Translations under genes and position numbers: made by a program
The notes under the pieces: generated by a model
What the model saw: the letters and a program-made list of their open reading frames with translations, nothing else
What the model was told of the DNA's origin: nothing
The model's database searches: none
Origin: Leucoraja erinacea
Lineage: Eukaryota
Direction: 5' to 3'
Assembly (NCBI RefSeq): GCF_028641065.1
Contig: NC_073394.1
Location: 41,416,001-41,480,000, forward strand
DNA: 64,000 nt
Shown here: positions 17,701-55,586 of the stretch, in pieces
Numbering within the stretch: the first letter of the stretch is position 1
Layout: the number at the start of each line of letters is the position of its first letter

Positions 17701-20700
17701 TTCTCCAATTTCCGGGAGCCCTTGCTTTCTTCTTCCCTTCACAGCTCTCCCTCAGCCCTCGGGCTCCTCCTCTTCCTTTCTTCTTCCAGCCCCCCCCCCC
17801 CCATCCTGCATCAATCTGAAGAAGGGTTTCGGCCCAAAACCTTTCCTTTTTCCTTTGCTCCACAAATGCTGCCTCACCCGCTGAGTTCCTCCAGCACTTT
17901 TGTCTACCAAGGAACTGCAGATGCTGGTTTACACAAAATGCTGGAGTTACTCAGGGGGTCAGGCAGCATCTCTGGAGAAAAGGAATAGGCGACGTTTTAG
18001 GTCGAGACCCTTCTTCAGACCTTTGTATCTTCAGAAAGTACATTTAGATTGCCAAGTTTTAATTACCTGCTTTGTTTTGACTAGCTCCTCCAAAGATCAC
18101 TGGATCCAATGGACATCAAACCATGCAACATCTTGAAAAAGAAATGGCCACTTGGTGGGTTTGTCCATTCCGACCTCGTGAAATTATAATTCGCTTATAC
18201 CTAAGGAGGAAGGGGGAAATATATGACATGAGAAATACTATTTTAGATTGGGACAGCAGAAAATCTACTGAAAACAGAAATGGAAAGATCAACGGAGAGG
18301 GTCACAATGAAGCGAGCATTCTTATGAATTCAAATTATGTCAATGCATCTTTTACACCATTGGAACCCAAATATGACACTGATGCAGATGGGATTTCCAG
18401 TGTGATGATCAATGTGGAAATATATCCAGATGTTAACCAGGATGCAGGGGCTGAATTAACCATTGAAGTTCAACATAAATCACTGAAACAGCCGATATCA
18501 AAGACTTTGATACTGGATGTTAAAGGAGGTAAAGTATAAATGTTTTCTTTAATCATTAATGTCTATATATTGTGATTTAATTCTGAATGTCTTCAGAGTC
18601 ATAGAGTGTACAGCGTAGGAACAGGCCCTTCAGCCCAACTTGCCCAGCCGACCAACTTTGTCCCATCTGCCTGCATTTGGTCCATATCCCTCCAAACCTG
18701 TTCTATCCATGTACCCGTCTAAATATTTCTTTAAAATTGTGATAGTACCTACCTCAACTATCTCGTCTGGCAGTTTGTTCGATACACTCACCATCTTTGT
18801 ATGAAAAGGTTACCCCTCAGATTCCGATGAAATCTTTCCACCCTCCTCATCTTAAATCTATGTCCTCTGGTCCTCGATTCACCTACTCTGGGCAAAAGAC
18901 TGTGCATCTACCCGATCTATTCCTCTGATGATCTTCTACACCTCTACTTGATCACTCTCATCGTCCTGCGCTCCAAGGAATAGAGTCCTAGCCTGCTCAA
19001 CCTCTCCCCTATAGCTCAGGCCCTCGGGTCCTGGCAACATCCTCGTAAATCTTCTCTGCACCCTTTCCAGCTTGACAACATCTTTATTACAAGGTGTCCA
19101 AAACTGAACACAATACTCTAAATGCGTGATTATGCGTTCATATTAACATCTATAATTTGTAACATTGATATGTTTTATGCAATGAGAGGATGGAACAGCA
19201 CAACACAGGAACGGCCCCTTTGGCCCACAATGTCCATGTTGAACATGATGCCAAGATAAACTAATCTCTGCTGCTTGCACGCAATCCATGTCCCTCCATT
19301 CCCTGCATATGCATGTGCCTATCTAAAAGCTTCTTAAACACCACCATTGTATCTTCCTCCACCACCACCCCTGGCAACGTGTTCCACGCTGTGTTTAACA
19401 ATGAACTTTGCCCCTCACCTCTCCTTTAAACTTTGCCACTCTAATCTTAAAGCTATGCCCTCCAGTCTTTGACATTTTTACCTTGGGAAAAATATTCTGA
19501 CTGCCTACCTTTTATCATGTATGTCTCGATGGGCCGAAGGGCCTGTTTCCACGTTGTACCTCTAAACTTAACTAAATTATATCAGGACCATTCTCTGGTT
19601 GGTAATGGGATGTTCAATTGTCTGATGACAACTAATACATTAGTAGTTATACATAGAAACACAGAAAATAGGTGCAGGACTAGGCCATTCGGCCCTTCGA
19701 GCCTGCAACACCATTCAATATAATCATGGCTGATCATCCAGCTCAGTATCCTGTACCTGCCTTCTCTCCATACCCCCTGATCCCTTTAGCCACAAGGGCC
19801 ACATCTAAGACCCTCTTAAATATAGCCAATGAACTGGCCTCAACTACCTTCTGTGGCAGAGAATTCCAGAGATTCACTACTCTGTGAAAAATATTTTTCT
19901 CATCTCAGTCCTAAAAGACTTCCCCTTTATCCTTAAACTGTGACACCTTGTTCTGGACTTCCCCAACATCCGGAACAATCTTCCTGCATCTAGCCTGTCC
20001 AACCCCTTAAGAATTTTGTACGTTTCTATAAGATCCCCCCTCAATCTTTTAAATTCTAGCGAGTACAAGCCGAGTCTATCCAGTCTTGCTTCATATGAAA
20101 GTCCTGACATCCCAGGAATCAGTCTGGTGAATCTTCTCTGCACTCCCTCTATGACAAGAATGTCATTCCTCAGATTAGGAGACCAAAACTGTACCCAATA
20201 CTCCAAGTGTGGTCTCACCAAAACCCTGTACAACTGCAGTAGAACCTCCCTGCTCTTATACTCAAAGCCTGTTGCTATGAATGCTAACATACCATTCGCT
20301 TTCTTCACTGCCTGCTGCACCTGCACGCCTACTTTCAATGACTGGTGTATCATGACACCCAGGTCTCGTTGCATCTCCCCTTTTCCTAATCGGCCACCAT
20401 TCAGATAATAGCCTACTTTCCTGCTTTTGCCACCAAAGTTGATAACCTCACATTTATCCACATTATACTGCATCTGCCATCCATTTGCCCACTCACCCAG
20501 CCTATCCAAGTCACCTTGCAGCCTCCTAGCATCCTCCTCACAGCTAACACTGCCCCGCAGCTTCATCCGCAAACTTGGAGATGTTGCATTCAATTCCCTC
20601 GTCCAAATCATTAATATATATTGTAAATAGCTGGGGTCCCAGCACCGAGCCTTGCCCTACCCCACTAGTCACTGCCTGCCATTCTGAAAAGGACCCGTTT

Positions 20701-55586: not shown

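What the first reader, a model, noticed from the sequence alone, without database searches (positions are those of the whole stretch)
18085..55586. Canonical disulfide cysteines are lost only in post-TM Ig domains
Seen: both ectodomain Ig exons keep B- and F-strand Cys. After the TM, exon 5 has neither (W and I), exons 6 and 7 keep both, exon 8 has F-Cys to Met, exon 9 has F-Cys to Phe, and the pseudo-exon and terminal exon have neither. Hydrophobic core residues and F(Y/H/K/R)P and V-x-H motifs persist in the internal domains. Inference: relaxed selection on disulfides in the reducing cytosol with retained fold, which independently supports the topology. Caveat: N-x-S/T sequons also occur in these domains, so sequons give no support.
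Basis: partly seen in the sequence, partly recalled or inferred. Interest (0 to 1): 0.75.

Follow-up and report, generated by a model that had tools for sequence, protein, structure and literature searches.

The report
Skate B7-H6 with cytosolic Ig tail
This skate gene encodes a relative of the human killer-cell ligand B7-H6 whose single membrane anchor is followed by six antibody-type domains; four of them lack the cysteine pair that normally staples such domains, an old pattern shared from sharks to frogs that likely reflects folding inside the cell, where the chain would act as a docking scaffold.

Summary
Observation confirmed; interpretation partly supported. The window holds a spliced 16-exon, 1086-aa B7-H6-family gene: signal peptide, V, C1, TM, then six coding C1-type Ig domains and one dead exon. 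The cysteine pattern is as described, but alone it is not significant (p 0.17-0.21). Across 68 relatives the B-F pair is intact in 134/135 pre-TM but only 99/230 post-TM domains. Post-TM domains also carry about 3-fold more stray cysteines and no sequon excess (1.06x chance, against 1.76x pre-TM), and the positive-inside rule holds in 28/28. Cytosolic topology is therefore well supported, though untested. It is not ongoing decay: losses are ancient and fixed per domain, lone cysteines are often invariant (D4 37/37), two domains keep both, and frogs probably regained one. AlphaFold gives Ig folds throughout. The pseudo-exon's F-Cys loss came after the exon died, so it is uninformative. A nurse shark orthologue is already deposited as B7H6; cytoplasmic Ig domains in Xenopus B7H6 are recalled from Flajnik 2012 (paper not held). 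This scan found the same feature at least seven times on other DNA. New member of a known kind; the tail's function is open.

The parts
2021..2162 (+). Exon 1, ATG and signal peptide
   Evidence: Hydropathy peak at residues 29-47, GT donor; matches P0008
7004..7339 (+). Exon 2, IgV domain, both canonical Cys (codons at 7072, 7282)
   Evidence: Pfam V-set E 1.3e-11; best PDB sequence match human B7-H6, E 8e-14
9220..9540 (+). Exon 3, extracellular C1 domain, both Cys (9288, 9477)
   Evidence: Pfam C1-set E 2.2e-12; spliced to the TM exon in RNA reads
13219..13332 (+). Exon 4, single transmembrane helix followed by basic residues
   Evidence: KD 2.82, the only internal hydrophobic peak; helix 279-302 in the model; RNA joints on both sides
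18085..18528 (+). Exon 5, post-TM domain D1: B=Trp, F=Ile, long disordered insertion
   Evidence: No Pfam hit; AF2 pLDDT 81; VIA Z 12.7, rmsd 1.9, 102 aligned to an Ig domain; hhalign to D2 prob 99
21822..22199 (+). Exon 6, D2: both Cys kept
   Evidence: Pfam C1-set E 6.9e-13; pair kept 28/28
23240..23548 (+). Exon 7, D3: both Cys kept
   Evidence: Pfam C1-set E 5.4e-18; pair kept 31/31; donor 23548 from identity with P0008
28362..28694 (+). Exon 8, D4: B=Cys, F=Met
   Evidence: Pfam C1-set E 8.9e-8; B Cys 37/37, F Met 29 or Val 8
29620..29931 (+). Exon 9, D5: B=Cys, F=Phe
   Evidence: Pfam C1-set E 3e-14; B Cys 20/20, F Phe 17 or Ile 3; pair present in three named frogs
32841..33158 (+). Dead exon of D6: no AG acceptor, F strand displaced by compensated frameshifts
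   Evidence: 63% identical to the intact Rhinoraja D6; frames and acceptor; absent from the RefSeq isoforms read
35054..50437 (+). Six 45-nt acidic micro-exons (35054, 44789, 46510, 47846, 49561, 50393) forming a predicted disordered linker
   Evidence: AG/GT, in frame; pLDDT below 50 at residues 897-985
55285..55586 (+). Terminal exon, D7: B=Ser, F=Val, stop codon
   Evidence: No Pfam hit; hhalign to D4 prob 98; seven strands, pLDDT 75-87; B Cys in 15/17 orthologous domains, Ser only in Leucoraja and Amblyraja

Best explanation
The gene encodes a B7-H6-family membrane protein whose six C1-type Ig domains after the single predicted transmembrane helix likely lie in the cytosol, are predicted to keep the Ig fold without disulfides, and would serve as a docking scaffold that controls surface display of the ligand. 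Shown: exon structure, splicing through the TM exon, cysteine states, conservation from sharks to frogs. Inferred (about 0.9): cytosolic side. There the B and F cysteines are just small buried hydrophobic residues, so each position was free to be swapped for another core residue (I, L, V, M, F, W) where packing allowed. That happened a few times early in jawed vertebrates and was then fixed, with later second-site losses (D1 B in batoids and in galeomorph sharks, D7 B in rajid skates) and one probable regain (D5 in frogs). Inferred (about 0.5): the chain binds cytosolic partners and governs trafficking, clustering or inside-out activation of the NKp30-type ligand, much as the B30.2 domain does for butyrophilins (recalled). 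No partner is known.
For: Only two hydrophobic segments, signal and TM; one internal segment in 27 of the 28 elasmobranch proteins scanned, the other having a weak 1.85 peak inside D2. Net charge is more positive after than before the TM in 28/28. RNA reads join C1 to TM (13 reads) and TM to D1 (10 reads); no skip among 15 of 21 joints shown. Pair intact 134/135 pre-TM vs 99/230 post-TM in 68 of 147 representatives; 28/28 in five all-extracellular control arrays. Non-canonical Cys per 100 aa: 0.60 pre, 2.03 post, 0.23 controls. Scattered Cys 0.03-0.07 vs 0.6-2.2 in elasmobranchs, with both ectodomain classes lowest of nine. Sequons 1.76x chance pre, 1.06x post. Ig fold predicted for every domain. 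Replacements are hydrophobic in all elasmobranch cases except D7 Ser in 2 skates. Cytosolic titin Ig domains carry CysB and CysF in only 43% and 42% of domains (PMC5766482, passages).
Against: No experiment on topology, redox state or partners. D2 and D3 keep both cysteines in 36/39 and 42/45 representative domains, which simple relaxation does not predict. The window alone is not significant. Sequences are related, so counts overstate independence. Within elasmobranchs alone sequons did not separate the two sides (D2 has one in 16/27). Read depth was low, so a minor TM-skipped isoform is not excluded. No ITIM-like motif was found in the tail, so there is no sequence clue to a partner.
Confidence: 0.78

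Rival explanations
1. D2 and D3 keep their pairs because they form real, redox-switchable disulfides in the cytosol (as some titin Ig domains do), so the tail is a stress or redox sensor that tunes ligand display, and the cysteine-less domains are spacers.
For: Near-invariant pairs in D2 and D3 from sharks to frogs while neighbours lost theirs. Titin Ig domains can form buried disulfides that resist reductant (PMC5766482). Human B7-H6 is induced in tumours and inflammation (PMC6514059, passages).
Against: Unpaired cysteines are just as invariant (D4 B 37/37, D6 F 19/19), so packing alone explains retention. Short relatives drop D2 or D3.
Confidence: 0.12
2. The post-TM domains are extracellular or lumenal, through a TM-skipped secreted isoform or a reversed topology, and the cysteine losses are an oddity of extracellular domains.
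For: The TM exon is 114 nt and phase-symmetric, so skipping keeps the frame. C1-set domains are otherwise extracellular (established knowledge). A few automatic architecture calls lacked a TM (P0182, P0192, P0227).
Against: Reads include the TM exon and no skip was shown. Positive-inside 28/28. No sequon excess and many stray cysteines after the TM. Extracellular controls keep 28/28 pairs.
Confidence: 0.06
3. The tail is decaying neutrally: duplicated exons without function, losing cysteines at random.
For: D6 is dead in the window; domain number varies widely among relatives; D1 is the most divergent domain (34%); human B7-H6 has no such tail (recalled).
Against: Open frames and domain order are kept in sharks, rays, reedfish, lungfish, caecilian and frogs. 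Identity of D2-D7 is close to the ectodomain's. C-strand Trp is invariant in D2-D7. Losses are fixed per domain, not random.
Confidence: 0.04

Closest known systems
Nurse shark B7H6 (GenBank QTT61906.1, 1092 aa; P0036)
   Same: Same layout V-C1-TM-D1..D7 and same broken pairs in D1, D4, D5, D6, D7; 42% identical over the full-length alignment A1; same A clade
   Different: Nurse shark keeps a coding D6 and the D7 B-Cys, has Tyr/Leu at D1 and lacks the acidic micro-exon repeat
Human B7-H6 / NCR3LG1, ligand of NKp30 (PDB 3pv6, 4zso, 6yjp)
   Same: Type I protein with IgV plus IgC ectodomain; best sequence match (E 8e-14, next family 4e-7) and best structural match (Z 22.0, rmsd 1.9, 206 aligned, 35% identity)
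   Different: The human tail has no Ig array (recalled: Gag-like). NKp30 binding is untested here. The skate copy beside KCNJ11 is another paralogue (C), not this gene
Xenopus long B7H6 with cytoplasmic IgSF domains (Flajnik et al. 2012, Immunogenetics 64:571; title seen in reference lists only, content recalled)
   Same: Recalled as B7H6 with Ig domains after the TM; frog proteins with that layout were found here (Rhinophrynus, Pseudophryne, Leptodactylus)
   Different: Could not check whether the paper reports the cysteine losses; frog D5 keeps both cysteines, skate D5 does not
Titin and other cytosolic I-set Ig chains
   Same: Tandem Ig domains in the cytosol with partial loss of CysB/CysF (43% and 42% present; PMC5766482), similar to 43% intact pairs here
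   Different: I-set, soluble or sarcomeric, with a CysG triad; here C1-type domains on a membrane ligand
Butyrophilins BTN2A1/BTN3A (B7-related, cytosolic B30.2)
   Same: V-C ectodomain of the same fold (Z about 17) coupled to a folded cytosolic module; a model for inside-out control (mechanism recalled)
   Different: The cytosolic module is B30.2/SPRY, not Ig; no ligand sensing is shown here

Membership tests
B7-H6 (NCR3LG1) subfamily of B7 | Type I membrane protein with distal IgV and proximal IgC | tested here: met
   definition from PMC6514059 passages
B7-H6 (NCR3LG1) subfamily of B7 | Ectodomain closer to B7-H6 than to other B7/BTN proteins | tested here: met
   PDB sequence E 8e-14 vs 4e-7 next; VIA Z 22.0 vs 18.6 for B7-H3 and 17.7 for PD-L1; groups with nurse shark B7H6
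B7-H6 (NCR3LG1) subfamily of B7 | Binds NKp30/NCR3 | not testable with these tools
   No shark NCR3 sequence was fetched and no binding assay is possible
Positional (syntenic) orthologue of human NCR3LG1 | Lies beside KCNJ11 (human order recalled; shared eQTL row in PMC7071772) | tested here: not met
   The Kir6.2-like gene (best PDB match KCNJ11, E 5e-162; KCNJ8 6e-155) is at C18:20.218 Mb beside paralogue C; the window's gene is at 41.4 Mb on the same chromosome
C1-set Ig domain (post-TM D1-D7) | Pfam C1-set above cut-off | tested here: inconclusive
   Met for D2, D3, D4, D5; no hit for D1, D7 or the pseudo-exon; D1 and D7 link to D2 and D4 by hhalign, prob 98-99
C1-set Ig domain (post-TM D1-D7) | B-F strand cysteine pair | tested here: not met
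   Absent in D1, D4, D5, D7 of the window; present in D2, D3
C1-set Ig domain (post-TM D1-D7) | Ig beta-sandwich fold | tested here: met
   Predicted only: all domains in the full model; D1 alone pLDDT 81, Z 12.7, rmsd 1.9, 102 aligned; D7 not folded alone
C1-set Ig domain (post-TM D1-D7) | C-strand tryptophan | tested here: inconclusive
   Invariant in D2-D7; Leu in the window's D1, Trp in 6/28 D1
Cytosolic Ig domains (titin-like behaviour) | Located in the cytosol with reduced cysteines | not testable with these tools
   Indirect support only

The most novel reading that the evidence does not exclude
The ancestral jawed-vertebrate B7-H6 carried a cytosolic chain of C1-set domains, the domain class of antibodies, TCR and MHC, that shed its disulfides domain by domain and now works as an intracellular sensor: it binds a cytosolic stress or pathogen cue (or switches on redox through D2-D3) and turns on NKp30-ligand display from inside, a butyrophilin-like inside-out system built from Ig domains and lost or replaced in humans. 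Parallel V-C-C-TM-Ig arrays in teleosts would make this a general, overlooked class of fish and amphibian receptors.
Probability: 0.15. Interest if true: 0.8.

Novelty: new member of a known kind. Interest (0 to 1): 0.42.

Why it matters
C1-set domains are textbook extracellular, disulfide-stapled modules. A chain of them kept on the inner side of an NK-ligand from sharks to frogs points to an unstudied signalling or trafficking function of ancestral B7-H6. It also offers natural disulfide-free C1 folds, useful for understanding how Ig domains stay folded in the cytosol. The gene and its layout are already deposited under the name B7H6, and the cysteine loss is the expected consequence of a cytosolic location, so the gain is a well-dated pattern and sequence-level support for topology, not a new system.

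Tried and rejected
dN/dS per exon among orthologues was not run: no orthologue DNA was available, and the first read lay at 88% likeness was swamped by intronic repeats (it showed only a spliced contig from a related species with a TM-sized gap between C1 and D1). dN/dS against the upstream duplicate covers V, C, TM, D1, D2 with too few changes (D1 Nd 20, Sd 2, p 0.19). A D2-D3 homodimer prediction gave no verdict (score 0.02), which is no evidence either way. The ESM Atlas gave only generic C1-set clusters. No RNA holder was on record among indexed runs; raw RNA runs were laid instead. Orthology of teleost si:ch211-180a12.2 to B7-H6 was considered and not accepted: weak profile matches (tD1 vs D2 prob 16), B7-H6 not its best PDB match, tree support 0.72. 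A strict one-way 'ratchet' was rejected because frog D5 has both cysteines inside a clade with Phe. Counting the pseudo-exon as a cytosol-driven loss was rejected. Ten literature searches found no held paper describing the tail or its cysteines. The likely sources (Flajnik 2012, Kinlein 2021 and three other Flajnik/Ohta papers) are not held, so neither their text nor supplements were seen and they may already report it. The supplement of PMC3964593 had no B7H6 term.

Full report
Gene model. Six-frame scans and splice-site checks give a plus-strand gene: signal peptide, V, C1, a 114-nt TM exon, then Ig-like exons at 18085, 21822, 23240, 28362, 29620 and 55285. Adding six 45-nt acidic micro-exons and the 23548 donor gives 16 exons, all AG/GT, 1086 aa, identical to RefSeq XP_055505910.1 of Leucoraja erinacea LOC129705966. 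Two masked stretches (24684-26060) lie between exons 7 and 8; orthologues join these domains directly, so no exon seems missing. Only two hydrophobic segments exist, signal and TM.

Observation. From the window alone this is within chance (p 0.17-0.21). The pseudo-exon (32841-33158) is 63% identical to the intact Rhinoraja D6, lacks an AG acceptor and has its F strand in another frame, where the Cys codon reads Tyr. Intact D6 exons keep F-Cys in 19/19, so that loss followed the exon's death; its B-strand Val is old.

Identity. The V domain's best PDB match is human B7-H6 (E 8e-14, next family 4e-7). The modelled ectodomain superposes best on it (Z 22.0, rmsd 1.9, 206 aligned). A search with the tail gave 32 hits, 28 of them elasmobranch, including nurse shark QTT61906.1, named B7H6 by its depositors. 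The skate genome holds this gene (A), a partial duplicate, paralogue B downstream, and paralogue C beside a KCNJ11-like gene 21 Mb away. That human NCR3LG1 lies beside KCNJ11 is recalled, with only an eQTL table row as support (PMC7071772, one passage). So the window's gene is a B7-H6 family member but not the positional orthologue.

Cysteine pattern in elasmobranchs. I tabulated 28 proteins. From I dropped P0001 (same gene, replaced by P0008), P0040 (isoform), P0046 (replaced by its named members P0053, P0054) and four non-elasmobranch hits. V and C1 keep both cysteines 29/29. D1 lacks F-Cys 28/28 and keeps B-Cys 10/28 (Trp in batoid A genes, Tyr/Phe in galeomorph A genes). D2 28/28 and D3 31/31 keep both. 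D4 keeps B 37/37 with F Met or Val; D5 keeps B 20/20 with F Phe or Ile; D6 has B Val or Ile with F Cys 19/19; D7 keeps B 15/17 with F Val, Ile or Leu. Shark-batoid identity is 51-57% for the ectodomain, 44-54% for D2-D7 and 34% for D1. This is constraint, not decay.

Wider sample. A profile search of 1.84 billion representatives returned 150 rows, 147 new. 68 have V-C-TM-Ig layout by automatic calls; ten looked up are reedfish, lungfish, caecilian, frogs and sawshark. With unresolved positions left out, the pair is intact in 134/135 pre-TM and 99/230 post-TM domains, and in 28/28 domains of five all-extracellular arrays. These counts share ancestry. A tree of V, C, D2, D3 from 37 proteins (midpoint root, deep nodes weak at 17-47) supports a C lineage across cartilaginous and bony vertebrates (99). 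It keeps the D6 pair where D6 was called. Its D1 keeps both cysteines in skate and sawshark but lacks B-Cys in lungfish and caecilian, whereas A/B-type genes lack D1 F-Cys: complementary, independent losses. D4 F-Cys is absent throughout. D5 has Phe almost everywhere but Cys in frogs, most simply a regain by one base change. Each domain class D1-D6 is monophyletic across A, B and C (support 0.64-0.96), so the array predates these duplications.

Topology tests. Net charge after the TM exceeds that before it in 28/28. Raw RNA reads join C1 to TM (1 + 12 reads) and TM to D1 (10 reads, reported one base inside the exon, which fits a single-base difference at its first letter); no C1-to-D1 joint is among 15 of 21 shown, at low depth, and some reads may come from the duplicate. 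Scattered non-canonical cysteines are 0.03-0.07 per 100 aa in ectodomain classes and 0.6-2.2 in all seven tail classes (the D1 figure includes its B-Cys, 1.97 without); in the wide sample 0.60 vs 2.03. Sequons are 1.76x shuffled expectation pre-TM and 1.06x post-TM in the 68 proteins, although elasmobranchs alone did not separate. These three signals are what a reducing, non-glycosylating compartment predicts.

Fold. AlphaFold2 with 25 sequences gives beta-sandwiches for all eight Ig domains, mostly pLDDT 75-92, with disorder only in the leader, the D1 insertion, the stalk and the acidic linker. D1 alone scores pLDDT 81 and matches Ig domains at Z 12.7, rmsd 1.9. D7 was not folded alone; it matches D4 by hhalign (prob 98).

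Mechanism. Shown: structure, splicing, conservation, cysteine states. Inferred: the tail is cytosolic and its cysteines serve as core residues, which explains invariant lone cysteines, hydrophobic swaps and a reversal. Titin gives the precedent, with CysB and CysF in 43% and 42% of its Ig domains (PMC5766482, abstract and passages). Inferred more weakly: the chain docks partners that control display of the ligand, by analogy with butyrophilins (recalled). Against: D2 and D3 almost never lose their pairs, which leaves a redox role open; no partner motif was found; a dimer prediction gave no verdict.

Known or new. Human B7-H6 is a type I V-C ligand of NKp30 (PMC6514059, passages). I recall that Flajnik et al. 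2012 described Xenopus B7H6 with cytoplasmic IgSF domains; I saw only its title in reference lists and could not read it or Kinlein 2021 (title seen). Ten searches found no held paper on the tail's cysteines. This scan had already noted the feature at least seven times on other DNA, including paralogue B of this genome; those notes agree but are not independent evidence, and their claims for chimaeras, reptiles and a marsupial were not checked here. Verdict: real and well supported, new member of a known kind, interest 0.42.

Noticed in passing
G000:C18:41,365,589-41,378,776 (L010-L012), upstream of the window: A near-identical duplicate with V, C1, TM, D1, D2 only; no D3-D7 found up to the window start. 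V (91%) and D1 (94%) differ far more than C1, TM and D2 (98-99%), mostly by amino-acid changes (not significant). RefSeq isoforms join its V-C onto this gene.
   Followed up: partly
G000:C18:20,184,463-20,203,200 (L003-L005): A third paralogue (C) about 14 kb from a KCNJ11-like gene, with V-C-TM-D1..D6, keeping both cysteines in D1, D2, D3, D6. It groups with sawshark, lungfish and caecilian proteins (UFBoot 99), so the C versus A/B split is older than the shark-bony fish split.
   Followed up: yes
G000:C18:41,490,992-41,517,000 (L018-L020): Paralogue B just downstream of the window, six post-TM domains, four with broken pairs.
   Followed up: yes
window 35054-50437: Six 45-nt acidic micro-exons in tandem intronic repeats, alternatively used in RefSeq isoforms; the count differs between skates.
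   Followed up: partly
P0049-P0177 (teleost si:ch211-180a12.2): A teleost family with V-C1-C1-TM and four post-TM Ig-like domains; ectodomain pairs kept in 102-104 of 104, three of four post-TM domains lack the pair, and the first two are more conserved (71-78%) than the ectodomain (54-59%). Orthology to B7-H6 not shown.
   Followed up: partly
P0224, P0236, P0257, P0264, P0271, P0276 and others: Further unnamed V-C(-C)-TM proteins with long post-TM Ig arrays, some with broken pairs; may be additional families with the same layout. TM calls are automatic and unchecked.
   Followed up: no
window 55285-55330 (D7, A strand): A non-canonical cysteine near the start of D7 is invariant (17/17), and a cysteine recurs at the like position in some D3, D4 and D6 domains; role unknown.
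   Followed up: no
G000:C18:41,256,278 (-), C1692, C543: Further B7-H6-like V exons with no D2-like match nearby in the genome search; possibly short forms or fragments.
   Followed up: no
window 9220-9540 (C1 exon): A third cysteine conserved in the ectodomain C1 of 23/27 elasmobranch proteins is absent in the three skate A genes.
   Followed up: no
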